IMG/VR virus record: IMGVR_UViG_3300039313_000009
Origin: a virus
Lineage: Duplodnaviria; Heunggongvirae; Uroviricota; Caudoviricetes
Strand: one strand, 5' to 3'
DNA length: 10,948 bases
In this document: piece after piece, positions 1 through 10,948 of the stretch
Numbering within the stretch: the first letter of the stretch is position 1
Layout: the number at the start of each line of letters is the position of its first letter
The notes under the pieces: generated by a model
What the model was told of the DNA's origin: nothing
Seen by the model: only the letters and a program-made list of their open reading frames with translations
The model's database searches: none
Program-made: the position numbers and the translations under genes

Positions 1-94
1 CAAGGCATTTACGGGAGAAAAAATCGGCTCAAACATGAAGAAATGAAATGACTGAGTCAGCCGAGAAGAATTTCCCCGCTTATTCGCACCTTCC
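1..94 (+). mobile_element. IS5-type insertion sequence, terminal 94 bp of the transposase-distal end (terminal inverted repeat at 79..94); element body lies upstream of the window
   Basis: Bases 1..94 match from memory the 3' end of IS5, ending in cttattcgcaccttcc (reverse complement of the IS5 terminal repeat GGAAGGTGCGAATAAG). Bases 20..94 are a perfect reverse complement of 10874..10948. The flanking tetranucleotide CTAG (95..98) fits the IS5 YTAR target preference. Confidence 0.8.
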
Positions 95-111
95 CTAGAG
101 GCGGACGTTTT

Positions 112-1848
112 GTGGCAGAAGCTGTCGTTAAAGCTTTCAGCAGTGCGATCAAAGAAGGTTTTATCGAATATGAAAAACCATTCCTGATTGAGAGTGTTAC
201 GGATATCATAGGATCTGAGAGTGTTCAGGAATGTTTAAAATACCTTTCCGAACATGATAAGGTATTGACTATTTTCTTTGATCAGTTCGAAGAAGTCTTT
301 ATGAAAGAGGAACTATTCGGGCTATTTAAAGAATTTGAACGATTCGCACTCGATGTCTCGGCACTACAAAGCAATTTAGTTGTAGGGTTCTCATGGAGAA
401 CTGGTATTACTTTAGGGGATGAAAATCCAGCGTACTCAATGTGGAATCGGCTAAAAGATTATAGGGTTGAAAAGAAACTTGAGCCTTTTGATCTAAAAGA
501 TTCATCTAAATTAATTAATAGTTTCGAGCTAAATACAGGGTTTAAATTAAATAAACCTTTACGCACGCGTCTTATTCAGCAAGCTCAAGGTTATCCATGG
601 TTATTGAAAAAGCTTTGTATTCATGTATTCAAAAAACTAAAAGGAGGTATCTCACAGGATCAAATGTTGGTTAGTCAACTACAGATCTCAAATTTATTTC
701 ATGAGGATTTAGATAGGCCTGAAAAACAAAATTCATGTTTAAAATTTGTGGCAAAGAACTCTCCGATTAGTCAATATGAAGTTACTAAAGAGTTTGGGAG
801 TGATACTGTTTTAGAGCTAATTTCAGATAGGATGGTAATTAAAACAGGTGAAAAATTATCAGTGTATTGGGACGTTTTTCGAGATTACTTGAAAGGAAAT
901 GACCTTCCAGTTATACCATGGTCATATATGCCATCAACATCTCCGAAAATGGTTTTGTTAATTCTTGATGTTGTAAACTCGTTCAAAACCATTAGCTTGG
1001 ATGAACTGCAAACTAAACTAAAATATAGTCGGGGAACATTAATAAATGTTTTAATGGATTTGCAGTATTTTGTTCTCATAGACAGAGATTTAAATGGGAA
1101 TATAGTTTGTAAACAGACTATCACAAATGTCCCTGAGTTTCTTCGTGAGCATTTTAAGAGTCATAGTGTTTTGTTAGAATTGGCAGAGAATATTGTTGAT
1201 GCCGATTTAAGAAGAGTTCCTATCGATAAGTATGAATCTATAATAGCCCATACTTATAAGAATAAAGACGGTGGTTATCCTAAGTCTTATAGTTCAAAAT
1301 TATTGGCTTGGTTACAATTTACGGGGCTGATAGCGGTTATCGGGAAATCTGTGGTTATATATGATGGCGAGTTGTTTTCCCCAGCATTTGGGGCGATTGA
1401 TCTAGATAAAAGAGGGGCACGCAATAGAAGAGGATCACTTTTCTTAGCTGCTACTTCGCCAGAAAAAACACTCGAAGTTGCCGAGTATCTGTGCGCCAAT
1501 AAAAAAATGAGCCATTCATTCATTCAGGCGAATAAACATAGGAATGCAGTGCAGGATTTAATTTCTTTAGGTTTTTGTTCTCGACAAGATGATGGTGTGG
1601 TGATAAATAATAAAATAGAAGTTATATTAGAAAGCATCAGCCTTGAAAGGGCTTTAGCTAGGTTAGTCACTGAATCTCCAGCTATCAAAATATTAAATGC
1701 TTATGTAAATAAATTTGGCGATGATGATAAGAAAATGATGGGGGCAGCACTAGCAAAAGAACTTGAGAGAACATGGACACCTGCATCTACTACTAGATAT
1801 ATTTATGCACTAATGAGATATCGAAATTTCGCATTGGAAACTTTATAA
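112..1848 (+). CDS. STAND/AAA+-like NTPase, 5'-truncated fragment (IS5-disrupted; probably a pseudogene); winged-helix-like C-terminal region
   Basis: 578-aa ORF with Walker-B-like VLTIFFDQFEE near its start and a GxP-like QGYPWLL motif further on, but no P-loop anywhere. The reading frame stays open upstream of the GTG at 112 right through the IS5 junction (first in-frame stop at 49..51), so the P-loop region is expected to have been removed by the insertion. Stop TAA at 1846..1848. Confidence 0.5.
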   Translation: MAEAVVKAFSSAIKEGFIEYEKPFLIESVTDIIGSESVQECLKYLSEHDKVLTIFFDQFEEVFMKEELFGLFKEFERFALDVSALQSNLVVGFSWRTGITLGDENPAYSMWNRLKDYRVEKKLEPFDLKDSSKLINSFELNTGFKLNKPLRTRLIQQAQGYPWLLKKLCIHVFKKLKGGISQDQMLVSQLQISNLFHEDLDRPEKQNSCLKFVAKNSPISQYEVTKEFGSDTVLELISDRMVIKTGEKLSVYWDVFRDYLKGNDLPVIPWSYMPSTSPKMVLLILDVVNSFKTISLDELQTKLKYSRGTLINVLMDLQYFVLIDRDLNGNIVCKQTITNVPEFLREHFKSHSVLLELAENIVDADLRRVPIDKYESIIAHTYKNKDGGYPKSYSSKLLAWLQFTGLIAVIGKSVVIYDGELFSPAFGAIDLDKRGARNRRGSLFLAATSPEKTLEVAEYLCANKKMSHSFIQANKHRNAVQDLISLGFCSRQDDGVVINNKIEVILESISLERALARLVTESPAIKILNAYVNKFGDDDKKMMGAALAKELERTWTPASTTRYIYALMRYRNFALETL

Positions 1849-1857
1849 TTATTAAAT

Positions 1858-1877
1858 CATAGGGCGAAAGCCCTATG
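1858..1877. terminator. Bidirectional hairpin between convergent genes (NTPase fragment and integrase)
   Basis: Perfect 8-bp stem catagggc / gccctatg with gaaa loop, followed by a T-rich tract on the plus strand; it overlaps the integrase stop codon. Confidence 0.55.
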
Positions 1878-3060
1878 ATTTTACTTTTATACCCCACCAT
1901 GACATCAATTCTCTGCGTTGTTCTAAATAAATAGAACGATTATACGCCCGCCGTACTTCATTTTTATCTATATGCGCTAAAGCTGATTCTATAATATCGG
2001 AATTAAAACCAGACTCGTTCAACGCTGTGCTAGCTATAGAACGAAGCCCATGAGCAACGAGTTTACCGCCATAACCAATCCTTTTAAGAGCAGCATTAGC
2101 AGTTTGGCTATTCATAGGTTGTTTAGGATCATTCCTGCTGGGAAAAACATGTTCTCGGTGAGCGCTAATTGGCTTCATTACATCCAGAATCTCTAATGCC
2201 TGTGGTGATAAAGGAACAATGTGTTCCCGCTTAGCTTTCATCCGTTCGGCTGGAATAGTCCAGAGCTTCGTATCGAGATCGATCTCTGCCCAACGGGCAC
2301 CAGAGGCCTCAGAAGGGCGCACGAGCGTCAGGAGTTGCCATTCAATGAGACAGCGAGTCGGAACAGACAGATTTGACATGACTAAAGAACGCATCAGCTT
2401 CGGCAATTCTTCTGGCCGCAGCGTCGGCATGTTTTGTTTTTTGGGCTTCTCAAAGGCCATTCCAATACCTGATGCTGGATTGGCATCAATCAGACCAGTG
2501 TTTACGGCATAAATCATTATCTCGTTAATACGCTGCACTAGTCGACGTACAGTCTCAAGCGCTCCACGAGCTTTGATTGGTTCCAATGCTTCAACTAATA
2601 TTCGGGCTTTAATTTGCTGAACGGGGATCTCACCGATGGCAGGGAATACATCTTTCTCCAATGAGCGCCAAATGTCTTTTGCGTAATCAGGGGTAACGCT
2701 TTTACTTTTGAGCTGGAACCAGTTAGCGGCGACCATTGAGAAAATACTGTCCAGAGCGATTTGCTGCTGTTCCTCTGCAACTTCGGCCTGAATTTGTGGG
2801 TCAATTCCGTTGGCTAACAAGGCAAGGTAATCCGCTCTTAACCCTCGGGCGTCAGCAAGTGAAAGGGCGGGGAAAGCACCAAGCCCCATCATTGTCCGCT
2901 GTTTTGTCGCTGGACGTTGATAACGGAAACGCCAGAGCTTTTTCCCGCTGGTTTTCACTATCAGGAAAAGGCCATCGCCATCATGCAGAGTTAGATCCTT
3001 CTCTAACGCTTTAGCGCGAAGAACTTCGGTGTTGGTAAGGGGGCGTGTTGTCCGTGCCAC
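1873..3060 (-). CDS. int: P4-type tyrosine integrase (IntA/CP4-57-like family)
   Basis: 395-aa ORF. N-terminus MARTTRPLT..DGDGLFL..SGKKLWRFRY is typical of P4-like integrases; C-terminus has HGLRS and ALAH..VRRAYNRS motifs consistent with the tyrosine-recombinase active site. It lies about 185 bp downstream of an ssrA 3'-end repeat in the same orientation, as for ssrA/tRNA-associated islands. Confidence 0.9.
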   Translation of the reverse strand: MARTTRPLTNTEVLRAKALEKDLTLHDGDGLFLIVKTSGKKLWRFRYQRPATKQRTMMGLGAFPALSLADARGLRADYLALLANGIDPQIQAEVAEEQQQIALDSIFSMVAANWFQLKSKSVTPDYAKDIWRSLEKDVFPAIGEIPVQQIKARILVEALEPIKARGALETVRRLVQRINEIMIYAVNTGLIDANPASGIGMAFEKPKKQNMPTLRPEELPKLMRSLVMSNLSVPTRCLIEWQLLTLVRPSEASGARWAEIDLDTKLWTIPAERMKAKREHIVPLSPQALEILDVMKPISAHREHVFPSRNDPKQPMNSQTANAALKRIGYGGKLVAHGLRSIASTALNESGFNSDIIESALAHIDKNEVRRAYNRSIYLEQRRELMSWWGIKVKS

Positions 3061-3083
3061 TGTGGCCGCTCCTTCATGAATTG

Positions 3084-3129
3084 GTATACGCTTTTAGGTA
3101 TACATCCTACCGTATACCTAAACGTATAC
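3084..3129. repeat. Array of four GTATAC(C) motifs with 12-14 bp periodicity, directly upstream of the P4-type integrase start; candidate arm-type or regulatory sites
   Basis: GTATAC at 3084, 3098, 3112 and 3124; the last two copies are CGTATACC within a near-direct repeat. Confidence 0.4.
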
Positions 3130-3172
3130 CAATAATCACCGGATTTAGCCGGATGTTCTCGGACAACGACAG

Positions 3173-3214
3173 ACACAAAAAAGCCCGCAGGGCTTGTGCC
3201 ATGCGGGCTTTCTG
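3173..3214 (-). terminator. Rho-independent terminator on the minus strand (GC hairpin followed by a U-run), between the ssrA-derived repeat and the integrase
   Basis: Plus-strand aagcccgcagggctt (3181..3195) and alternative pairing gcccgca / tgcgggc (3183..3189 with 3202..3208). On the minus strand the hairpin is followed by TTTTTTGTG (complement of 3173..3180). Confidence 0.5.
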
Positions 3215-3245
3215 TACTTCACCGGACGTATCCGGATCATGATTT

Positions 3246-3275
3246 GGTGGAGCTGGCGGGAGTTGAACCCGCGTT
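3246..3275 (-). other. Attachment-site repeat: the 3'-terminal ~30 nt of the tmRNA gene ssrA (T-arm, acceptor 3' strand and CCA), without the rest of the gene
   Basis: The reverse complement of 3246..3275 reads acgcgggttcaactcccgccagctccacca, matching from memory the 3' end of E. coli ssrA. Sequence beyond 3275 shows no tmRNA-like continuation, so this is a partial copy (att direct repeat), not a functional gene. Confidence 0.75.
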
Positions 3276-3330
3276 CTATTAATGGTAAATAACTGTAATT
3301 TATAGCTTTTATTTGAAGTAGATCACATGC

Positions 3331-3377
3331 GTATCCTTTGTGGATACTTGAGGTATATGTTATATATAAAACATATA
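3331..3377. promoter_or_regulatory. AT-rich promoter region of the DarT-like operon with two palindromes (candidate operators)
   Basis: gtatcc-N5-ggatac at 3331..3347 and tatatgtt-N8-aacatata at 3354..3377, sitting 25-70 bp upstream of the ATG at 3403 among TATA-like hexamers. Confidence 0.4.
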
Positions 3378-3402
3378 TTTACATGAAGTAAATGGATGTT
3401 TT

Positions 3403-4026
3403 ATGACAATACAGGAAATAATTCAGCAACGTAATATTCGTAGCTTGTTTCATTTTACACATAGCGATAATCTAACTTCCATTTTAGATAATGGCCTTAT
3501 GTCTCGTTCAGAACTTGATAATGAAAATAATGAATATAATTATAATGATGAAGAAAGGATTGATGGTCATCCAGATGCGATTTGTTTGTCCGTAAGTTAC
3601 CCTAATGCAAAAATGTTTTATAAATATAGATGTTTAAAGCCTGGGGGCTGGGTTATATTAGAAATCAATCCATCTGTTCTTTGGGCTAAGGATTGCGCTT
3701 TTTATCCTACCAACGCAGCTTCGAATAACGTTCGTTTTATAAATATTGATTTGATGAAAGGAGCTGAGGCATTTAGTGCTTTGTTTTCAGAGAATGTTTT
3801 TGGGATTCAGAGAGATGTAAACCTTCCAAGTGAGTATACGACGGATGTTCAAGCTGAAATACTGGTATTTGAAAAAATTCCTCCCTCATATATTATAAGC
3901 ACTTTTCACCCTAACAAAGAATCTGCTGAACATTTCAAGAGATTATATCCACAGACAATACAGAGATCTTATGATAATCTTAATGCTAGAACATTTTATT
4001 CTCAGAGGCATTATTATTTAGGATAA
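3403..4026 (+). CDS. darT: DarT-like DNA ADP-ribosyltransferase toxin (DUF4433-type)
   Basis: 207 aa. LFHFTHSDNLTSILDNGL (residues 15-32) parallels the recalled DarT N-terminal motif (for example LFHITHMDNLPSILTSGL); QAEILVF (150-156) parallels the catalytic-glutamate motif; central CAFYPTNAASNNVRF resembles the conserved mid-region. AT-rich codon usage unlike the flanking prophage genes. Confidence 0.7.
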   Translation: MTIQEIIQQRNIRSLFHFTHSDNLTSILDNGLMSRSELDNENNEYNYNDEERIDGHPDAICLSVSYPNAKMFYKYRCLKPGGWVILEINPSVLWAKDCAFYPTNAASNNVRFINIDLMKGAEAFSALFSENVFGIQRDVNLPSEYTTDVQAEILVFEKIPPSYIISTFHPNKESAEHFKRLYPQTIQRSYDNLNARTFYSQRHYYLG

Positions 4027-4029
4027 GTT

Positions 4030-4719
4030 ATGGCCGTTAGACCTGTTTTCGTCCCTACAAACGCAGGGAACTTACTATCGATCACGAAGGATGTGGATTT
4101 TCCTTGGGCTCCTGGTATGTCTAAAACGCAAAAGCAAAAATCGATCAGGGCGTTACATACAGCAGCGAATGAGCAGGGATTGAACTCTTTGTTGGAAATT
4201 TCTAGTAAATCCGAAGATGCGCTGGGGGTAGCACTTAGTGCATTTAATCTAAGAATAAAGACGAAAAGACTTGGGAAAGAGTTTACAGTTGAATCTGCAT
4301 TTCAAGCAAGTAAAGTATTTGAAATGGGAGGACCATATGTCGATATCTTAGATAAAAGCTCGATAGAAGCAAAAAAAGATATGAGATTAAAGGAATCTGG
4401 GGGATTAGTTAACTTCAAATTTTATAATACAATATGGCCCATTGTCCCCAGGACTGCTTTTTATGATTGGTTATATTTGAGTGCGCTCAATCAAAACAAA
4501 AATCTAGCACTCCATCTATTAAATTTTGATGGATTTACTGATATTGAATTTAATCCAGCGAAATCTATTAATTGCCAAGCCAGAGCAGCTGCACTTTTTG
4601 TCTCTTTAGTAAGACGAAATATGTTAGATGATGTTTTATCTTCAAAGGATGGTTTTTTATCAAAATTAGCATCTCATTATGGTGTTGAAAATTATTCTAT
4701 TCAACATACATTGATATGA
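4030..4719 (+). CDS. Operon partner of the DarT-like gene: NADAR-like (YbiA/DUF1768-type) candidate ADP-ribosyl hydrolase antitoxin; no macrodomain signature
   Basis: 229 aa. Translationally coupled (3-nt gap, AGGA Shine-Dalgarno overlapping the upstream stop). LSAF..KEFTVESAFQASKVF aligns by eye with the YbiA motif FSNF..WPTSEHYFQAQKF, followed by SSIEAKKDM versus SSPMVAARM and a W...L..LL region. No DarG-like glycine-rich macrodomain motifs are visible. Confidence 0.5.
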   Translation: MAVRPVFVPTNAGNLLSITKDVDFPWAPGMSKTQKQKSIRALHTAANEQGLNSLLEISSKSEDALGVALSAFNLRIKTKRLGKEFTVESAFQASKVFEMGGPYVDILDKSSIEAKKDMRLKESGGLVNFKFYNTIWPIVPRTAFYDWLYLSALNQNKNLALHLLNFDGFTDIEFNPAKSINCQARAAALFVSLVRRNMLDDVLSSKDGFLSKLASHYGVENYSIQHTLI

Positions 4720-4721
4720 AT

Positions 4722-4745
4722 AATGGCCTGTAAAGGCCATTTTTA
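4722..4745. terminator. Bidirectional terminator hairpin between the DarT-like operon and the convergent lambdoid integrase
   Basis: Stem aatggcct / aggccatt with gtaa loop, followed by TTTT on the plus strand. Confidence 0.6.
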
Positions 4746-4751
4746 TCTAAA

Positions 4752-5921
4752 TTAATATCTATTTTTTCTATTTAAAGATGTATTTCCATCATATTCTTTG
4801 AGGTATGAGCCATAATGTCTAAATAACATCTCTGGTCCTTTATGACCCATTTGAACCGCAAGCCAAAACAGGTTTGCTCCCCGGCTGATATGGCTGGTGG
4901 CGAATGTATGTCTGGTTTGATATGGGTTTCTGTAACGAATACCTGCTTTCCGCAATGTTGGCACCCATGCTTTTTTTCTAATTGCATCAGCACTTGCCCA
5001 AGGCTTATTGGTCTTTGGATCTTCAAAGACTGTAGCATCCTTCATGAATGTAAATGGCTTCTGATTTATCAGCGCCAACATTGCATCTTCTGTCAGTTCA
5101 ACTTTACGAGTACCGGCTTTTGTCTTTGTTCCTTTGATAACACCGACAACACTTGCGCTCTGGACATGGGCAGTTTTTCCAACAAAGTCGATATCACGCC
5201 ATCGAAGGGCACATAATTCAGAACTACGCAGGCCTGTATGTATAGCGAACCGGAACAGATTCTCCCATTGTTTGTTTCCGGCTGCTGCTAGTAATGCATC
5301 AACTTCTGCTGGTGATAGCGGATCAACCACGTAGCTGCTTTCTGCTTCTGACTTATCACTTTGGTAGCGCGAAGCAGTTACCAACGATACGGGGTTAATT
5401 TGAAGTACCCCATCGGTTACGGCTTCATCAAGTGCTGACCGCAGGAAAGATAACTGGTTGCGAATTGTTTTTAAGGTCGTTTTCTGGCTTTGAATCCACG
5501 CTTTCAGGATTGCTGGTGTTAATTCACTTGCAGGGCAAATGTGGAGTGAGGCTAACGCACTACGGCATTTTTTATAACCACCAATCGTAGATGGTGAAAG
5601 TTTTCTCGTTTCGCAGATTTCAAGGTATTCGTCCAGGTACATTTTTACCGTTTTGCCTGCAGCAGCATTACCAAAAATTTTCAAACGAGCAGAACGGGGA
5701 AAATATTCCGCATAAATGAATGTTCCCCTTTCGATCTTATTATGAATTTCGCCGAGTGTGCGCTCGGCGTATTTAATGTTCTTTGGTGTTACTTCCAGAT
5801 TGGAAAGAGGCTCACGACATCTAACTCCTTTGTAGGTGAAAGTTATATTGATCGTTTCGCCCTGGCGGTGTTTCCTGATTGTTACGCCGCGCGGTAGTTT
5901 GAGCAGTTTTGTCTGGCCCAT
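4752..5921 (-). CDS. int: Lambdoid-type tyrosine integrase with an N-terminal arm-binding domain
   Basis: 389 aa. C-terminal motifs TRHTFAT, MGH and FRHYGSYL fit the R-H-R-Y tyrosine-recombinase active site. The N-terminus (KLPRGVTIRKH..ITFTYKGVRCRE) is arm-binding-like. GAGG Shine-Dalgarno 8 nt upstream; its 5' end overlaps the xis-like gene. Confidence 0.9.
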   Translation of the reverse strand: MGQTKLLKLPRGVTIRKHRQGETINITFTYKGVRCREPLSNLEVTPKNIKYAERTLGEIHNKIERGTFIYAEYFPRSARLKIFGNAAAGKTVKMYLDEYLEICETRKLSPSTIGGYKKCRSALASLHICPASELTPAILKAWIQSQKTTLKTIRNQLSFLRSALDEAVTDGVLQINPVSLVTASRYQSDKSEAESSYVVDPLSPAEVDALLAAAGNKQWENLFRFAIHTGLRSSELCALRWRDIDFVGKTAHVQSASVVGVIKGTKTKAGTRKVELTEDAMLALINQKPFTFMKDATVFEDPKTNKPWASADAIRKKAWVPTLRKAGIRYRNPYQTRHTFATSHISRGANLFWLAVQMGHKGPEMLFRHYGSYLKEYDGNTSLNRKNRY

Positions 5922-6088
5922 TTTGCAACCTCACTAAGATCAATCCACCTCTCCTTAACGCCTTCAACCTTTAAAACCTGAACACCTTCACGCCAAACAC
6001 CGCGCTGTACACGTTTGTTTATTGCTTCAGGAGTTTCGCCAGTTTCTTTGCAATAAGTTGAGATTGGAACACAATCGAGGTTCAGCAT
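5882..6088 (-). CDS. xis: Excisionase-like small DNA-binding protein (recombination directionality factor); start reassigned to ATG 6088 (the ORF track begins at GTG 6100)
   Basis: About 68 aa, immediately upstream of and overlapping the integrase 5' end, as is typical for xis-int pairs. GGAG Shine-Dalgarno 7 nt upstream of ATG 6088. Basic, helix-turn-helix-like composition. Confidence 0.55.
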   Translation of the reverse strand: MLNLDCVPISTYCKETGETPEAINKRVQRGVWREGVQVLKVEGVKERWIDLSEVAKWARQNCSNYRAA

Positions 6089-6147
6089 ATGTTTCTCCAC
6101 TTAGCCCGCTGCACACGGGCAGTAATATCAAATTCCAGTCCTGATAA

Positions 6148-6363
6148 TTAATTTTGTTCCCTGGTTGCTACCTGTTTTATTGGCCTGATGCTGTCCAGTA
6201 GCAGACGGCGACGCATGTTAGGTGCCCCCCAACGGTAACCAGTCTTTTTGTCGTAGGATTCACAACGTCCGGCAACCCAGGACGTTTCAGTGGAATGTAA
6301 TTTCATCCGCTTTTCACCGTCTCGGGTGATAACAATTCCTGTATGAGTTTTTATCACGCTCAT
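6148..6363 (-). CDS. Small hypothetical phage protein (71 aa) in the early-left operon
   Basis: ATG at 6363 overlaps the upstream gene stop (ATGA overlap); same-strand operon context. No recognisable motif. Confidence 0.4.
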   Translation of the reverse strand: MSVIKTHTGIVITRDGEKRMKLHSTETSWVAGRCESYDKKTGYRWGAPNMRRRLLLDSIRPIKQVATREQN

Positions 6364-6722
6364 TTCTTAGTCTCTGGTGCTTTCGGCATTACTGCCCAGT
6401 GAGTGATATTGACGTTTTCAAGGTCCCCGACCTGAAATGTCCACTGCCATTCTCCGGTTTCTTTTTGTCCCCAGGTGTACCAGAGAGAACGCCAGCCAAT
6501 CAGCCAGCCTTCTCCGTTGGCATCAAATAACAGAACACTTTCATTTGCTGGTGGCAGTTCAGCTGACACTGGTATTATTTTGCTTTCCAGTGCCGCACAT
6601 TTAGCTTCAAGCGCGTCGAATTTACGTACCAGGTACTCAGCATTTGTTTCGTTCACTTTCAGATCTCGCGGTACACATTTCCCGCGAAGAAACCCTTCCA
6701 TTTCGAAAACATTTATGCGCAT
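6360..6722 (-). CDS. yfdS: yfdS-like lambdoid prophage protein (120 aa; DUF551-type, family recalled from memory)
   Basis: 120-aa ORF with a Trp-rich C-terminus (GEWQWTF..THWAVMP). GGAG Shine-Dalgarno 9 nt upstream of ATG 6722. Gene order and sizes mirror the yfdP-Q-R-S module (120/274/178/120 aa) of E. coli CPS-53, as recalled. Confidence 0.5.
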   Translation of the reverse strand: MRINVFEMEGFLRGKCVPRDLKVNETNAEYLVRKFDALEAKCAALESKIIPVSAELPPANESVLLFDANGEGWLIGWRSLWYTWGQKETGEWQWTFQVGDLENVNITHWAVMPKAPETKK

Positions 6723-7249
6723 TTGCGTAACTCCGATAATTCGTTAAAGCGTTCCATAAACATCCCGTAGGCATGGCCTGGAGCCAGTGGAATCACGTTG
6801 AACATCTCTGTTGCCGGGATACCTTCCAGCACAGGCCAGAAAGAGCCATCATCAAGCCCGAGATCGCGGCGTTCGGTTGCCAGCATGATGAGATCGGCAT
6901 ATTTCACGGGCGTACTCATAACTGGGGGTAACCCGTATTTCTCACGGATTACGGCGTCTATTTTTTCTTCCATCCGTTTATAGTCAGGAAGAAGGCGTTT
7001 CAGTGGAGCGGGGATGTCCTGGCAATATGCTTCTGTTGCATCATGCATTAACGCTTCAAAAGCAAATTCCTGCGGTACCAGCTGGCTGCAAAGCACCGCA
7101 TGTTGGGCGACGCTGTAGAAGTGTGAAAGATGCCCTGCAAAGCGACAGATATTTGAAAGGGAAACCGCGATATCGTTAATAACGATGTCGTCTTTATTTA
7201 TCTTGTCATAATAAAAATGCTTCCCGGAAAAAGTTTTAATAAATGACAT
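6713..7249 (-). CDS. yfdR: HD-domain phosphohydrolase, yfdR-like 5'-deoxynucleotidase; start reassigned to ATG 7249
   Basis: 178 aa from MSFIKTF. GGAG Shine-Dalgarno 6 nt upstream of ATG 7249. H..HD-type metal-binding residues (AGHLSH, ALMHDATEAY). The 38-codon extension in the ORF track (to 7363) has no ribosome-binding site. Confidence 0.6.
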   Translation of the reverse strand: MSFIKTFSGKHFYYDKINKDDIVINDIAVSLSNICRFAGHLSHFYSVAQHAVLCSQLVPQEFAFEALMHDATEAYCQDIPAPLKRLLPDYKRMEEKIDAVIREKYGLPPVMSTPVKYADLIMLATERRDLGLDDGSFWPVLEGIPATEMFNVIPLAPGHAYGMFMERFNELSELRKCA

Positions 7250-7343
7250 TTTGTTCTCCTCGTTATGTGCGCTGCACCGCACTGAATTTTGGCAAAAGGA
7301 AGCCCTCACCACCCGGCGATTATTGAGTAAATTATGTTTCCAT

Positions 7344-7365
7344 AAATGCCCCCGCAGGGGCATTT
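7344..7365. other. Perfect 9-bp GC-rich hairpin in the yfdQ-like/yfdR-like intergenic spacer
   Basis: aaatgcccc-cgca-ggggcattt; no flanking U-run on either strand, so not a canonical intrinsic terminator. Confidence 0.4.
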
Positions 7366-7377
7366 GCAGTAATGAAA

Positions 7378-8202
7378 TCAGGCGGTGAAAGTCCCAATAA
7401 AGGTTTCTACTTTGCTGTCCTTGAATTTCTCAACAAGCAGATCACGAAATTCGTTAGCCATTTCTTCCTGCACGGCCTCCAGCTGAATAATGCGCAGAAC
7501 CAGTACAGGACGATCGCCAGTGATAATGCTGAGGCGTAATTTAAACGGACGTTCTTTCAGACCTTCAAACGGAACGCATTTAAATTCAAATGCCACTGGC
7601 ATAATGTCTTTGGTCTTCGCTTCGACAGACTCCATCAGGGAGCGTTTGCCGCTGAAGTCATTATCTTCAAAATCAGCGGTCTGGTTTGCTTCAATCGTGA
7701 TTTTACGGACAGCCGCAGCCGCTTTTGTTGCCTGAATAGCGTCACCATTAGCATCAAAGCCCACAAGGTAGTCGGCCCAGTCTTCAATCCATTCTGCCAG
7801 TGACTTCTGGGAATGACGCTCGCCATTAACAGACAACAGAGCAGAGAACGGTGCTGTCTTTTTCAGTTTGAGAGTGGAGGTGTTATCTGCGTGACCTGGT
7901 TCATCAATAGTACCCAGGTTAAGCACACTGACGGCACGCATATTATCGGCATCGATAAAGCAGCGGGTGCCTTCATCTGCAAGATCTTTAGAATAACGGG
8001 TAAAATCATCGATGCTGGCAGTGGAAAGTGCACCACGGAAACGGAAGCGATTTAAATTAAATTTTTCCAGATCATGAATGCGGAAATTCTCAGGCAATGC
8101 CACAGCATCGGCACCAATCTTACTGATAATTTCATTAACACCCTGAGCAGAAATAAGGGCATGGATTTGATTAATTGCGGTTGCGTCTAAGTTCTGAGAC
8201 AT
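7378..8202 (-). CDS. yfdQ: yfdQ-like lambdoid prophage protein (274 aa; DUF2303-type, family recalled from memory)
   Basis: 274-aa ORF with GAGGA Shine-Dalgarno 7 nt upstream of ATG 8202; position and size match yfdQ within the yfdP-Q-R-S module. Confidence 0.5.
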
Positions 8203-8267
8203 AATAAGTCCTCACTATATAAAGATATTCAGTGATGAGATAAATAATCAGTTTATTACGAACGATA

Positions 8268-8630
8268 TTAACGACCTGCTGCGCGGAGTTTTCCGTCAGG
8301 TTCACCGGCAAGAGTCAGTAATTGTCCCTGGTCTTCCTGCAGAATAGTCAGGCGACCACCGCGATTGACATACATCGGCGTTTCGGTGGTGTCTTCTTCG
8401 GAAATTTTCCCGCGGTTAGTTGGGCGAACATATGAGAGTTTGTGTTTGATTTTCACACGGTTCTCATCAAACGGTTCGATTTCCAGATTGAGTGAGACCT
8501 TCCCTTTGGTTTTCGTGTTCATCACACCGGAAGCGACCTCACTGAGAACTGCGCCGATTTTGGTTTCAAATACGCCGCCGTCCAGCTCCCCGATAAATGC
8601 CTGCACATCAGTACTGCGTTCGCTAGCCAT
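8268..8630 (-). CDS. yfdP: yfdP-like lambdoid prophage protein (120 aa); start reassigned to ATG 8630
   Basis: 120 aa from MASERSTDVQ. GAGGAG Shine-Dalgarno about 8 nt upstream of ATG 8630. The longer track ORF (to 8795) runs into the GC-rich block and is low-complexity. Confidence 0.5.
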   Translation of the reverse strand: MASERSTDVQAFIGELDGGVFETKIGAVLSEVASGVMNTKTKGKVSLNLEIEPFDENRVKIKHKLSYVRPTNRGKISEEDTTETPMYVNRGGRLTILQEDQGQLLTLAGEPDGKLRAAGR

Positions 8631-8650
8631 TTTGCTGCTCCTCATCATAT

Positions 8651-8900
8651 CGACCCTGCAAGGTCGGTTGGTTTCTCCACAAAACAGAGAAGAACACCTG
8701 CGGTGGCAGCCGCCCGGATGGATTGGGTTATGAGCCCGTCGTCCGGTGATGCTCTTCTCTGTTTTGCAAAAAAGGACGGTACCAGCCGGAAGCAAGGGTA
8801 CAAACTGGTACCGCCAGGACTACACACAGCATAAAGTTGTGGTGCCGGGTGCCTCCCGGTGCCTGGCGAAGGTTGCACACCAGGCGGGTGGGTATCCACA
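8651..8900. other. GC-rich, hairpin-dense non-coding block (candidate structured RNA, recombination site or gene remnant) in the divergent intergenic region
   Basis: 14-bp long-range inverted repeat caaaacagagaaga (8680..8693) / tcttctctgttttg (8754..8767) enclosing about 60 nt; hairpins cgacc..ggtcg (8651..8666), ccggg-tgcct-cccgg (8845..8859) and gcctgg-N13-ccaggc (8861..8885); GGTACC repeated at 8779 and 8807. Overlapping ORFs here are Pro/Gly/Arg-rich and look spurious. Confidence 0.35.
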
Positions 8901-9040
8901 GAAGGTCGACTGTCAGCCTCAACCTTAACCCGCGTGCGCTGAGCCGCATTCACCACAACGCTAAGGATTCTCTCTGGTTGAAAATACTTAGCTGTTATGT
9001 GCCTGCTTTTAGCCACATCAGGCGAGGTGGACCTGGTTAT

Positions 9041-9086
9041 TCCCCAACAACAAGGATTCGGTTAATCTGGATATCCCCAACAACAA
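9041..9086 (+). promoter_or_regulatory. Two perfect 13-bp direct repeats tccccaacaacaa upstream of the zinc-ribbon gene; candidate operator or iteron sites
   Basis: Copies at 9041..9053 and 9074..9086, ending 15 bp before the GTG at 9101. Confidence 0.4.
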
Positions 9087-9100
9087 TAAGAGTATTCAAT

Positions 9101-9616
9101 GTGATCGCTGAATTAACGGCAGCAATGACGGCTATTCGTGAAACAGCCCAGATTGCAAAACTAATGAACGAGGCAAAAACTCAAGCTGAAGTAAATGCGG
9201 CTATTGGTGAGCTGAACTCAAAGCTTGCGTCTATTCAGCGCGAATGCGTGTCTCTCGTTGAACTGGTGGGCTCTTATCAAGAAATAAATGCTTCTCTCAA
9301 AGCTAAAATTGCAGAATTCGAAAACTTTGAGGCTCAGACGGAAGGCTATATCCTTAACCAACTTGAGTCGGGTACTTTTGTATACTCGAAGGAGGTAATC
9401 GTGAACGGTGGCAGCATAACCATGCATCTTTGCCCAAAATGTTTTGGACAAAAGATAGTATCGATACTTCAACCATTCCCGGTTAGCGAAGATGAGCTTT
9501 TTCATAAAAGCAGGTGCCTCCACTGTGAAAATAAGTTTCTGATGAATAAAAATCCGGATTACGTATCGCCTCCATCCATTGAGGAGTTGTCCAGAAAACT
9601 TAACGGCAATCTGTAG
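9101..9616 (+). CDS. Hypothetical coiled-coil protein with a C-terminal CxxC..CxxC zinc-ribbon (about 164-171 aa); the start may instead be ATG 9125
   Basis: Open frame with GTG 9101 (AAGAG 8 nt upstream) and ATG 9125. N-terminal heptad-like, Ala/Glu/Lys-rich segment; C-terminal HLCPKCFGQ..SRCLHCENKF. Followed by a terminator. The 5' part of the track ORF (8837..9100) lies in the GC-rich block and is rejected. Confidence 0.45.
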   Translation: MIAELTAAMTAIRETAQIAKLMNEAKTQAEVNAAIGELNSKLASIQRECVSLVELVGSYQEINASLKAKIAEFENFEAQTEGYILNQLESGTFVYSKEVIVNGGSITMHLCPKCFGQKIVSILQPFPVSEDELFHKSRCLHCENKFLMNKNPDYVSPPSIEELSRKLNGNL

Positions 9617-9656
9617 ATTACTACTGTTGTGGATATCCAGATTGTTAAAGAGCTAA

Positions 9657-9678
9657 GCGTCCTGTAGGGCGCTTTTTT
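9657..9678 (+). terminator. Rho-independent terminator for the zinc-ribbon gene
   Basis: gcgtcc-tgta-gggcgc stem-loop (one G-U pair) followed by TTTTTT. Confidence 0.6.
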
Positions 9679-9763
9679 GTTGCTAACGAATCATCCGGTC
9701 ATTCATACGCCACCGGCGGCTACTTCGTGGGCGTCCTGCCTGTCCGTGATAGCTTACATTATG

Positions 9764-9815
9764 TTGCTACTTAAAGTAGCAAAAATCAACAACAAAAAGT
9801 AGATATTTGTTGTTG
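9764..9815. promoter_or_regulatory. Pair of palindromes in an AT-rich non-coding region; candidate protein-binding, centromere-like or origin-like sites
   Basis: 19-bp perfect palindrome ttgctactt-a-aagtagcaa (9764..9782) and caacaacaaa-N9-tttgttgttg (9787..9815); the CAACAACAA motif is shared with the repeats at 9041..9086. Confidence 0.35.
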
Positions 9816-9960
9816 TCTATGATTTTTCTATAATTAATTGAAAGTTAAATGTTTTTGCTGATTTACTATGCTGTAAACTGAAAATATCGCACGAAGTTGG
9901 AGTAGGTATTGAGCATAGTGAATTATGAGGAGGGAGTTTTTTATGAGATTAATCAGGGAG

Positions 9961-9993
9961 AAAGAAGAGTAAAGCCCGGTTATGCGGCCGGGC
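9961..9993 (-). terminator. Rho-independent terminator for the ParA-like gene
   Basis: gcccgg-N8-ccgggc hairpin (9974..9993) followed on the minus strand by a U-rich tract (complement of 9961..9973), 8 nt downstream of the stop at 10001..10003. Confidence 0.55.
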
Positions 9994-10000
9994 ACATGCA

Positions 10001-10846
10001 TTACTTTGTAAGTTCTAGAACTCGTTGAGCCAGCCCTTTAAATTGTTCGTTAAAGGCGTCTCTGCTTGATTTCATTGTATTTAAGGCATGCCCAAATTGC
10101 CCTGAATCGCGAATTTGCTGATCACTGATGGAGAAAACAGGTGTCGCTAGTTGTTGGCTTATTGCGATTAATGAGTTGAAATCGGAAATATGCGCAAGAT
10201 CATAGGCTGATAAATCTCCACTGACTGTTGTTTTGTTAATTGCATGTTGCACTTTATCTCGTGGAATTATGCAGGTAATTTTTTCTAGATTTGGCACTAA
10301 GATCGAATCAACAGCATCACGGATAGCTGCCATCCATTTTTCGAAAGATTTTACAGGTGCTCCTTTACGCGGCCTGTATCTCTGCTGAATCATACCTAGA
10401 AACTGCGGTGCATTTTTAATTGATTGTGAAGAGTTACCATCATTATTTTCTTTAAATAATGCTAATTCTTTGTGCCAGCGAGGTATATTTTTTGAGAGAG
10501 AGCGAATTGCTTGCCAGCAAAAAAAGTCTGGAGCTACAGGTACGATAAAATAGTCACTTGACATGAGAACTACTTCATTTAAACCTCCAACATTAGGGCT
10601 GAGATCATAAAGAATGTAATCAATATTATTCTTCATGGCGATTAGCTGTAATATTTTTGGCAGGTTCCCTGGTATATTTCTTGTAGCAGGAATACCAGCA
10701 GCAATTTTTAGAGAAACACTTATCTGTGAATCTAAGTCCGAAACATCTAAATGTCCGGGAAGAAGCAGAAGGTTTTCATGCAGTGTAGGGTGTAATTTTC
10801 CCGTTTCTTTTTCAAGGTATGCTTCAGGTTGTCCGCCATTAATCAA
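10001..10846 (-). CDS. ParA/MinD/Soj-superfamily ATPase, 5'-truncated fragment (IS5-disrupted; frame open to 10873; deviant Walker A missing)
   Basis: The segment DYILYDLSPNVGGLNEVVLMSSDYFIVPVAPDFF matches the ParA core (hydrophobic strand, Asp, then ...P...S/T...AL..AD..hhP). The track start is a TTG and the frame continues open into the IS5 junction; no KGGxGKT P-loop is present. Confidence 0.65.
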   Translation of the reverse strand: MINGGQPEAYLEKETGKLHPTLHENLLLLPGHLDVSDLDSQISVSLKIAAGIPATRNIPGNLPKILQLIAMKNNIDYILYDLSPNVGGLNEVVLMSSDYFIVPVAPDFFCWQAIRSLSKNIPRWHKELALFKENNDGNSSQSIKNAPQFLGMIQQRYRPRKGAPVKSFEKWMAAIRDAVDSILVPNLEKITCIIPRDKVQHAINKTTVSGDLSAYDLAHISDFNSLIAISQQLATPVFSISDQQIRDSGQFGHALNTMKSSRDAFNEQFKGLAQRVLELTK

Positions 10847-10873
10847 ATATTCTACAATAGGTCCAAGAGTTAA

Positions 10874-10948
10874 GGAAGGTGCGAATAAGCGGGGAAATTC
10901 TTCTCGGCTGACTCAGTCATTTCATTTCTTCATGTTTGAGCCGATTTT
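10874..10948 (-). mobile_element. IS5-type insertion sequence, terminal 75 bp of the transposase-distal end (terminal repeat at 10874..10889), inverted relative to the left copy; element body lies downstream of the window
   Basis: ggaaggtgcgaataagcgggg... at 10874 onward is the exact reverse complement of 20..94. The flanking tetranucleotide TTAA (10870..10873) fits the YTAR target preference. Confidence 0.8.

What the first reader, a model, noticed from the sequence alone, without database searches (positions are those of the whole stretch)
1..10948. Entire segment bracketed by two inverted IS5 copies, both cutting off the 5' end of an inward-reading NTPase gene
The first 94 bp and last 75 bp are perfect reverse complements and match the IS5 transposase-distal terminus, each flanked by a YTAR tetranucleotide (CTAG, TTAA). 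Both junctions interrupt open reading frames that continue without a start codon into the IS. The arrangement could be two independent insertions, a composite-transposon-like unit, or the product of IS5-mediated inversion of the enclosed ~10.8 kb.
Basis: seen in the sequence. Interest (0 to 1): 0.6.

Follow-up and report, generated by a model that had tools for sequence, protein, structure and literature searches.

The report
IS5-family insertions at both contig ends
Both ends of this E. coli fragment stop inside copies of a common jumping gene (IS5 family, probably ISKpn26) that landed separately in two accessory ATPase genes of a prophage and a phage satellite, which is ordinary; it is also unclear whether the two copies really lie 10.8 kb apart.

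Summary
Bases 1-94 and 10874-10948 are the same transposase-distal terminus of an IS5-family element, inverted, abutting CTAG and TTAA. They truncate an Mrr-nSTAND1 NTPase gene (first 329 codons missing) and a ParA-family gene (first 68 codons missing), so both lose their Walker A motif.

The left copy is a plain insertion. Contigs from the same samples carry psu, the missing 5' gene half and CTAG, followed by the other IS end, which is ISKpn26-type rather than IS5. Outer plus inner halves, minus one CTAG, rebuild the intact gene with no mismatches. That excludes unit (composite-transposon) movement. The outer junction of the right copy was not found.

The "bracket" itself is doubtful. The window joins the integrase arm of an ssrA-linked prophage/P4-satellite locus to the ParA arm of a prophage normally at argU. 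The join runs through a 2.56-kb module (6369-8929) present in up to seven places per E. coli genome. Other assemblies with the same two junctions place them on different contigs. No complete genome holds more than 65% of the window in one place.

The join is either an assembly artefact or a real inter-prophage recombinant. IS-mediated inversion cannot be tested. This is ordinary biology of low interest.

The parts
1..94 (+). Last 94 nt (transposase-distal, IRR end) of an IS5-family element. The transposase would read rightwards into the window. The window, and probably the contig, stops inside the IS.
   Evidence: Identical to the last 94 nt of K-12 IS5A and of an ISKpn26-like copy. This end occurs in 1869 of 5426 E. 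coli genomes, at up to 42 places per genome.
95..98 (.). CTAG, the inner copy of the 4-bp target duplication of the left IS.
   Evidence: The outer copy is seen in L023-L026 (...TCTGCTAG|GGAAGGTGCGAACAAGTTCC). The intact gene has one CTAG.
95..1848 (+). 3' remnant (from codon 330 to the stop) of a 913-aa Mrr_cat-nSTAND1 STAND NTPase gene. The nuclease domain and Walker A are missing. The gene is cargo of the psu-int hotspot of a P4-like satellite.
   Evidence: 100% identical to EC1722-1 L001 6001-7754. Pfam Mrr_cat 24-117 and nSTAND1 255-402 on the intact protein. Walker A at residue 294.
1873..3060 (-). P4-type tyrosine integrase (395 aa) of the satellite.
   Evidence: Pfam Arm-DNA-bind_3, Phage_int_M and Phage_integrase. 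It sits next to psu/delta/sid in relatives.
3245..3274 (-). Last 30 nt of ssrA (tmRNA): the attachment-site core between the satellite and the lambdoid prophage.
   Evidence: Alignment with L006, where ARAGORN calls the full tmRNA. Identity with the ssrA locus ends at 3274. Sub-threshold Rfam tmRNA hit at 3245-3325.
3403..4719 (+). DarT (3403-4026) and its NADAR antitoxin (4030-4719): a DarTG1 toxin-antitoxin/defence pair carried between the att core and the prophage integrase.
   Evidence: Pfam DarT 4e-23 and NADAR-DarT1 1.4e-89. PADLOC DarT. RefSeq annotation in relatives.
4752..6100 (-). Lambdoid prophage integrase (389 aa, 4752-5921) and a small overlapping ORF in the excisionase position (5882-6100).
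   Evidence: Pfam Arm-DNA-bind_2 and Phage_integrase. The small ORF has no Pfam hit, so 'excisionase' is inferred from position only.
6369..8929 (-). Early-region module (yfdS-like, yfdR, yfdQ, yfdP) shared at 98-100% between the ssrA-linked prophage (locus A) and the argU-linked prophage (locus B). The assembly path that links the two IS junctions runs through it.
   Evidence: B-type loci align from 6369 and A-type loci up to about 9030. Up to 7 places per genome; the best complete-genome identity to the window's haplotype is 98.4%. The other contigs show inconsistent mosaics.
7616..7767 (.). Interval in which the window switches from A-type alleles (as in ECONIH4) to canonical B-type alleles. 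It is either a crossover point or an assembly switch point.
   Evidence: Allele tables. Window 7616-10874 has no mismatch to CFS3273.
9101..9616 (+). 171-aa hypothetical gene of the B-type right arm, flanked by a 26-nt imperfect inverted repeat.
   Evidence: Annotated or called in CFS3273 and in L031-L040. No Pfam or PADLOC hit. Repeat I2 at 9064-9089 / 9618-9643.
10001..10873 (-). 3' remnant (from codon 69 to the stop) of a 358-aa orphan ParA-family ATPase gene that lies next to the prophage repressor. Walker A is missing.
   Evidence: Identical to ParA nt 205-1077 of CFS3273. Pfam AAA_31 and CbiA. Walker A at residue 11.
10870..10873 (.). TTAA, the presumed inner copy of the target duplication of the right IS.
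   Evidence: A single TTAA at this site in intact ParA. The outer copy was not observed.
10874..10948 (-). Last 75 nt (same IRR end) of a second IS5-family copy, inverted relative to the first. The transposase would read leftwards into the window.
   Evidence: Reverse complement identical to window 20-94 and to the IS5A/ISKpn26-like 3' ends.

Best explanation
Two separate, ordinary transposition events of a multi-copy IS5-family element (ISKpn26-type) hit YTAR targets in two accessory P-loop NTPase genes of integrated mobile elements.

The first event was at CTAG, in codon 330 of an Mrr-nuclease/STAND NTPase gene. That gene sits in the psu-int defence hotspot of a P4-like satellite integrated at ssrA. 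The second was at TTAA, at codon 69/70 of an orphan ParA-family gene next to the repressor of a lambdoid prophage. Each insertion separates the Walker A motif (and, for the first gene, the nuclease effector) from the rest of the protein, so both are null alleles.

The window ends inside the IS copies because the IS is repeated in the genome and short-read assembly stops there.

Shown: the identity of the termini; both insertion sites; the 4-bp duplication and contiguous outer half for the left copy; the loss of Walker A.

Inferred: that the right copy is equally simple; loss of function; and that the two copies probably lie in two different prophage loci (ssrA-linked and argU-linked). On that last point, the 10.8-kb 'bracket' would arise from an assembly path through the shared 2.56-kb yfdS-yfdP module. 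I rate this sub-claim at only about 55%.
For: Termini identical to IS5A and ISKpn26-like 3' ends.

The intact genes in IS-free genomes are 100% identical up to the junctions and carry a single CTAG/TTAA.

The predicted 339-aa read-through product of the outer-left junction exists exactly in the protein collection. Its contigs (L023-L026) come from samples that also hold the inner junctions. They show P4 core genes, psu, the nSTAND1 5' half and CTAG, then an ISKpn26-type IRL. Outer plus inner halves minus one CTAG equal the intact EC1722-1 gene with 0/2742 mismatches.

The IS end occurs at up to 42 places per genome.

For separate loci: L007 (a 68.7-kb SPAdes contig) and L008 carry the identical left junction but continue past about 9030 into a ParA-less repressor/cro arm. 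L012 carries the identical ParA junction and continues to intD, tRNA-Arg and fimZ. In MEGAHIT assemblies the contigs break at 6385-6511. No complete genome holds more than 65% of the window in one place. The window's haplotype in 6369-8929 occurs in none of the 3039 genomes that carry the module.
Against: The outer junction of the right copy was not found. The predicted 76-aa products are absent and the pattern scans were empty. A deletion or rearrangement outside that copy therefore cannot be excluded.

The window's shared-module haplotype is a clean single switch: A-type alleles to 7615, then canonical B-type alleles from 7616. The other assemblies of this lineage are messier mosaics. So the window could be the correctly phased contig of a genuine recombinant.

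The source assembly and assembler are unknown. The unequal 94/75-nt IS overhangs do not look like a fixed-k de Bruijn break.
Confidence: 0.8

Rival explanations
1. The contig is correct. In this strain a homologous crossover within yfdQ (window 7616-7767) between the inverted yfdS-yfdP modules of the ssrA-linked and argU-linked prophages inverted roughly half the chromosome. This brought the two previously distant IS-disrupted genes to within 10.8 kb, in inverted orientation.
For: The window shows a single A-type to B-type allele switch.

In EC1722-1 the two modules are on opposite strands, 2.42 Mb apart on a 5.04-Mb chromosome. In K-12, ssrA (2.755 Mb) and argU (0.565 Mb) have a midpoint of 1.66 Mb. 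From my own knowledge, dif lies near 1.59 Mb, so the inversion would be nearly symmetric about the ori-ter axis, the kind that is tolerated.

The geometry of such an inversion predicts exactly an A-left + B-right hybrid.
Against: No complete genome shows this hybrid. Two or three other assemblies with the same IS junctions keep the canonical arms. The haplotypes of the module disagree among all assemblies, which is typical of collapsed repeats. The reciprocal hybrid (B-left + A-right) was not looked for, because it cannot be looked up with these tools.
Confidence: 0.3
2. The contig is correct, and the segment has been, or can be, inverted by homologous recombination between the two inverted 1.2-kb IS copies.
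For: Two identical termini in inverted orientation. IS copies of 1.2 kb are adequate substrates for recombination (general knowledge).
Against: Inner junctions are unchanged by such an inversion, so the window carries no information on it. The hypothesis also needs the two copies to be 10.8 kb apart, which is itself doubtful. The interior is collinear with IS-free relatives on each arm.
Confidence: 0.05
3. The two IS copies and the enclosed DNA form a composite transposon that moved here as a unit.
For: Only the formal arrangement of two inverted IS copies around a cargo that includes DarTG.
Against: The left IS has its own CTAG duplication. Its outer flank is the exact continuation of the gene it interrupts, inside an otherwise intact P4-like satellite. 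Both inner flanks are collinear with IS-free genomes.
Confidence: 0.02

Closest known systems
IS5 / ISKpn26 (IS5 family, IS5 group) simple insertions in E. coli
   Same: The terminal sequence is identical. The terminal inverted repeats are imperfect (GGAAGGTGCGAACAAG / GGAAGGTGCGAATAAG). The 4-bp duplication is at a YTAR target (CTAG, shown on both sides of the left copy). The element is multi-copy in many E. coli genomes.
   Different: Nothing mechanistic differs. Neither insertion site occurs in any of 5426 complete genomes.
Defence hotspot between psu and int of P4-like satellites, with Mrr_cat-STAND NTPase cargo (Rousset et al. 2022, PMC9122126)
   Same: The disrupted gene lies between psu and the P4-type integrase. 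Its intact form has Mrr_cat plus a STAND (nSTAND1) NTPase domain, an architecture the paper lists for this hotspot.
   Different: Here the gene is broken by an IS. A 2026 survey (PMC13586616) reports that recognisable defence pseudogenes are rare in P4 loci (<1%). No anti-phage activity has been tested for this protein, and PADLOC does not recognise it.
Contig breaks at repeated IS elements, and collapsed prophage repeats, in short-read assemblies
   Same: Both ends stop inside a multi-copy IS. Sister assemblies stop 51-123 nt into the same IS. Contigs of sister assemblies break at the edges of the shared module, or carry mosaic haplotypes in it.
   Different: The IS overhangs in the window are unequal (94 and 75 nt). 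The window traverses the repeat where others stop. The assembler is unknown.
Large chromosomal inversions by recombination between homologous prophages placed symmetrically about the replication axis (general knowledge, e.g. in E. coli O157)
   Same: The two prophage modules are inverted, 98-100% identical over 2.56 kb, and sit at ssrA and argU.
   Different: There is no direct evidence that the inversion happened. Only one hybrid junction is seen, and only in this one contig.

Membership tests
IS5-family insertion sequence (IS5/ISKpn26 group) | Terminal sequence and imperfect 16-bp terminal inverted repeats | tested here: met
   94/94 and 75/75 nt are identical to the IS5A and ISKpn26-like 3' ends. 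IRL GGAAGGTGCGAACAAG against IRR GGAAGGTGCGAATAAG.
IS5-family insertion sequence (IS5/ISKpn26 group) | 4-bp target duplication at YTAR on both sides of the element | tested here: met
   Left copy: CTAG on the outer side (L023-L026) and the inner side (window 95-98), with exact reconstitution of the gene. Right copy: only the inner TTAA was seen; the outer side was not found.
IS5-family insertion sequence (IS5/ISKpn26 group) | DDE transposase gene between the ends | not testable with these tools
   The window holds only 94 and 75 nt of the element. A transposase is annotated in the reference copies, but no contig spans either of these two insertions.
Composite transposon | One target duplication at the outermost ends only, and flanks unrelated to the interior | tested here: not met
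   The left IS carries its own CTAG duplication. Its outer flank is the missing half of the interrupted gene.
P4-like satellite psu-int hotspot cargo | Gene located between psu and a P4-type integrase in an element with P4 core genes | tested here: met
   L001 and L023 carry primase, AlpA, Ash, sid, delta and psu, followed by the nSTAND1 gene and then the integrase at window 1873-3060.
STAND NTPase defence proteins (Avs/NLR-like) | N-terminal effector plus a central STAND P-loop NTPase | tested here: met
   The intact relative has Mrr_cat at 24-117 (32.1 bits, cutoff 21) and nSTAND1 at 255-402 (32 bits, cutoff 27.1), with Walker A at 294. The window copy lacks both the effector and Walker A.
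STAND NTPase defence proteins (Avs/NLR-like) | C-terminal sensor repeats and demonstrated anti-phage activity | not tested
   No Pfam or PADLOC family hits the C-terminal 500 residues. No structure was predicted and no experiment was done.
DarTG1 toxin-antitoxin / defence pair | DarT ADP-ribosyltransferase adjacent to a DarT1-associated NADAR antitoxin | tested here: met
   PF14487 at 4e-23 and PF22397 at 1.4e-89 on adjacent same-strand genes, 3403-4719.
ParA/MinD-type ATPase | Deviant Walker A (KGGxxK[ST]) P-loop fold, with a partner ParB or centromere for partition function | tested here: inconclusive
   The intact relative matches AAA_31 (2.2e-29) and CbiA, with KGGVSKT at residue 11. No ParB-like neighbour is present in CFS3273 or L031-L036. 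The fold is therefore met but the partition role is not supported.

The most novel reading that the evidence does not exclude
The contig is genuine. On this reading it records a crossover inside yfdQ between the ssrA- and argU-linked prophages, that is, an ori/ter-symmetric inversion of about half the chromosome. The inversion placed two IS-inactivated NTPase genes in inverted orientation around a 10.8-kb block carrying DarTG and two integrases, creating a potentially invertible or mobilisable IS-bounded defence segment.
Probability: 0.3. Interest if true: 0.3.

Novelty: already known. Interest (0 to 1): 0.12.

Why it matters
It matters little beyond bookkeeping. It is a worked example of a contig that looks "bracketed by inverted IS copies" only because short-read assembly stops at a multi-copy IS and may pass through a repeated prophage module.

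There are two minor points of biological interest. First, a lineage seen in several gut metagenomes has lost both a P4-hotspot Mrr-STAND NTPase and a prophage ParA-like ATPase to IS insertion, while other strains lost the same genes by nonsense or frameshift mutations. That is anecdotal, ascertainment-biased evidence against the view that defence genes in P4 hotspots are swapped but rarely pseudogenised. Second, if the contig is real, it marks a large inter-prophage inversion.

Tried and rejected
1. Searching complete E. coli genomes for either IS junction found none. Only IS-free alleles at 100% identity turned up.

2. A word-indexed homology search with the predicted truncated nSTAND1 product returned only distant proteins. 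The exact-sequence look-up succeeded instead.

3. Predicted outer-right products were all absent. These were ParA residues 1-69 plus IS read-through, tried with IS5, ISKpn26 and IRR-type ends and with alternative starts.

4. Short ParA N-terminal fragments that are present in the collection (P0035 and others) turned out to be contig-end or frameshift alleles, not IS junctions.

5. Pattern scans gave nothing relevant:
- the left junction in viral contigs had 0 hits;
- a degenerate pattern for both ParA junctions in metagenome contigs had 4 unrelated hits;
- a four-junction degenerate pattern in genome contigs had 11 unrelated hits in other genera.
The source contig was therefore not located in any collection.

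7. I tried to decide chimera versus real recombinant by counting haplotype switches across assemblies. The canonical, swapped and inverted genome models need 6, 5 and 5 switches, which does not discriminate.

8. The composite-transposon reading was rejected on the left-end duplication.

9. PADLOC gave no credible defence-family assignment for the nSTAND1 or ParA proteins.
Full report

Yes. Window 1-94 reads ...CGCTTATTCGCACCTTCC and window 10874-10948 reads GGAAGGTGCGAATAAGCG.... The repeat finder reports arms 20-97 / 10871-10948 at 99%. The 75 bases that belong to the IS are an exact reverse complement, which chance would give with a probability of about 1e-45.

Both ends are identical to the last 94/75 nt of K-12 IS5A (annotated mobile element). 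They are equally identical to an annotated "IS5-like element ISKpn26 family" copy. In that copy the transposase stops 146 bp before this terminus, so it is the transposase-distal end. In both copies the transposase would read into the window.

The flanking tetranucleotides are CTAG (95-98) and TTAA (10870-10873). The frames of the two flanking genes stay open across the junctions and hit stop codons inside the IS.

**2. What is interrupted?**

*Left gene.* Window 95-1848 is 100% identical to the 3' 1754 bp of a 2742-bp gene of E. coli EC1722-1 annotated "nSTAND1 domain-containing NTPase". The intact 913-aa protein has Mrr_cat (residues 24-117) and nSTAND1/AAA_16 (255-402). Its Walker A, GGSGNGKS, is at residue 294. 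The IS sits in codon 330, so the nuclease domain and the P-loop are cut off.

*Right gene.* Window 10001-10873 is identical to nt 205-1077 of a 1077-bp "ParA family protein" gene of strain CFS3273. That protein matches AAA_31/CbiA and has KGGVSKT at residue 11. The IS sits at codon 69/70.

**3. What is the segment?**

It is the junction of two integrated mobile elements.

- 95-3244 is the integrase end of a P4-like satellite. Relatives and the outer contig carry primase, AlpA, Ash, sid, delta and psu upstream. The NTPase gene lies between psu and the P4-type integrase at 1873-3060. This is the known P4 defence hotspot, for which Mrr_cat-STAND proteins are listed (PMC9122126).
- 3245-3274 is the last 30 nt of ssrA, the att core.
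- From 3275 onwards comes the integrase arm of a lambdoid prophage. It holds DarT and its NADAR antitoxin (3403-4719), a 389-aa integrase (4752-5921), small ORFs, and yfdS-like, yfdR, yfdQ and yfdP genes.
- After about 9030 the window follows a different right arm: a 171-aa gene and then the ParA remnant. In complete genomes this arm belongs to a prophage at argU (tRNA-Arg, intD, fimZ).

**4. Are these simple insertions?**

*Left copy: yes, demonstrated.* I predicted the product of the outer junction as nSTAND1 residues 1-330 followed by read-through of the other IS end. The version with an ISKpn26-type end exists exactly in the protein collection; the IS5-type version does not.

Its contigs come from ERZ918621, ERZ918646, ERZ27239429 and JGI 3300029073. 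The three ENA samples also hold one or both inner junctions. They read ...GTCCGTTCTGCTAG|GGAAGGTGCGAACAAGTTCCTGATATGAG.... The 121 IS bases match the ISKpn26-like copy at 121/121 and differ from IS5A at 22 positions.

The outer 992 bp plus window 99-1848 equals the intact EC1722-1 gene with 0/2742 mismatches. The upstream 6 kb is collinear with the P4-like satellite. So the left copy is a plain insertion with a CTAG duplication. This refutes movement of the segment as a composite transposon.

*Right copy: not settled.* The single TTAA in the intact gene and the exact identity up to it fit the same mechanism. But I could not find the outer junction. The predicted 76-aa products are absent, and the pattern scans of the metagenome and species-representative collections returned only unrelated IS junctions. 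A deletion or rearrangement outside the right copy is therefore not excluded.

**5. Is the segment really bracketed?**

This is the weak point.

- No complete E. coli genome (5426 searched) has either junction or more than 65% of the window in one place.
- The left junction occurs, base for base, in L007 (a 68.7-kb SPAdes contig) and L008. Both continue past about 9030 into a ParA-less arm with a zf-ClpX-like gene, an S24 repressor and cro. This is the arm seen in the complete genome ECONIH4.
- The right junction occurs in L012, which continues through yfdP-yfdT to intD, tRNA-Arg and fimZ. It also occurs in L013, L017, L018 and L020.
- In the MEGAHIT assembly ERZ918621 the left contig stops at window 6511 and the right contig starts at 6385. 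That is a 127-nt overlap, exactly where A-type and B-type loci become homologous.
- The shared module 6369-8929 is present in 3039 genomes at up to 7 places each. No genome matches the window's version better than 98.4%, although the flanks have 100% matches.

Allele tables show the window carrying A-type alleles (as in ECONIH4) up to 7615 and canonical B-type alleles from 7616. From there to 10874 it has no mismatch to CFS3273.

The other contigs of the same IS-bearing lineage are identical in the unique flanks, but each has a different mosaic within the module. L008 and L012 even share one mosaic. This is the signature of a repeat that assemblers do not phase. Counting switches under canonical, swapped or inverted genome models gives 6, 5 and 5, so the data do not decide.

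Two readings remain:

- (a) The window is a mis-join through the repeat, and the two IS copies lie in different prophages. These are about 2.2-2.4 Mb apart (EC1722-1 coordinates; K-12 ssrA at 2.755 Mb and argU at 0.565 Mb).
- (b) The window is the correct contig of a strain in which a crossover inside yfdQ between the two inverted modules inverted about half the chromosome. The geometry predicts exactly this hybrid. From general knowledge of where dif and oriC lie, the interval is nearly symmetric about the replication axis.

I put (a) at roughly 55%, (b) at about 30%, and the rest on other arrangements.

**6.

Recombination between the two inverted IS copies would leave both inner junctions unchanged, so the window cannot speak to it. 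It also presupposes that the copies are neighbours.

**7. Comparison with known systems, and novelty**

Everything here is of a known kind:

- an IS5-family element inserting at YTAR with a 4-bp duplication;
- a P4 hotspot carrying an Mrr-STAND NTPase;
- DarTG1 as prophage cargo;
- contigs ending in IS copies.

The only mild departure from expectation concerns pseudogenes. A recent survey finds recognisable defence pseudogenes rare in P4 hotspots (PMC13586616). Here the same gene is broken by an IS in one lineage and by nonsense mutations in others: C622T in L003/L004 and C679T in L005. ParA likewise carries a nonsense allele (L014), a 2-bp deletion (L015/L016) and a 1-bp insertion (L021). These alleles surfaced because I searched for the truncated product, so they say nothing about frequency.

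**8. Verdict**

The element is probably ISKpn26 rather than IS5. The physical linkage of the two copies is unproven. Interest is low.

Noticed in passing
window 3275-4751; L001 9181-11448: The slot between the ssrA att core and the lambdoid integrase holds DarT plus a NADAR antitoxin here and in ECONIH4. In EC1722-1 the same position holds an RloB-family protein plus an AAA ATPase. This looks like a cargo-swapping spot at the integrase end of this prophage family.
   Followed up: partly
window 9750-10873; L002 9632-10708; L037-L039: The ParA-family gene is a variable insert between the 171-aa gene and the prophage repressor. It is present in CFS3273 and L031-L036 and absent in L037-L039, where homology to the window stops at about 9743-9750. 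No ParB-like partner is nearby, and PADLOC gives only a weak P-loop hit to candidate PDC-M28B.
   Followed up: partly
L003/L004 (nt 622 of the gene), L005 (nt 679); L014, L015/L016, L021 (ParA nt ~197-240): Other strains carry independent inactivating alleles of both genes. The Mrr-nSTAND1 gene has two different nonsense mutations. ParA has a nonsense mutation, a 2-bp deletion and a 1-bp insertion. They were found because the look-up used the truncated product, so ascertainment is biased.
   Followed up: partly
window 9064-9089 and 9618-9643: A 26-nt imperfect inverted repeat (85% complementary) brackets the 171-aa hypothetical gene (9101-9616) almost exactly. Its meaning is unknown.
   Followed up: no
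window 8766-8989 (-) and 3177-3254 (-): There are sub-threshold Rfam hits. STnc100 sRNA scores 40.3 bits against a gathering score of 47, over the full model length, upstream of yfdP. A short fragment matches IsrM next to the ssrA att core.
   Followed up: no
window 6369-8929 versus L007, L008, L012, L013: Contigs from different samples are identical in the unique flanks, but each shows a different allele mosaic inside the shared module. L008 and L012, from one sample, carry the same mosaic at two loci. Assembled sequence of this module should not be trusted for phasing.
   Followed up: yes
window 1-94 and 10874-10948: In both copies the transposase is co-directional with the remnant of the gene it disrupts, so read-through transcription into the 3' remnants is possible. 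With two events this orientation match is not significant.
   Followed up: no
JGI sample 3300029073 (L026): This metagenome holds the outer-left junction. The degenerate scan of metagenome contigs found neither ParA junction there. Either the two insertions do not always co-occur, or those contigs are not in the collection.
   Followed up: no
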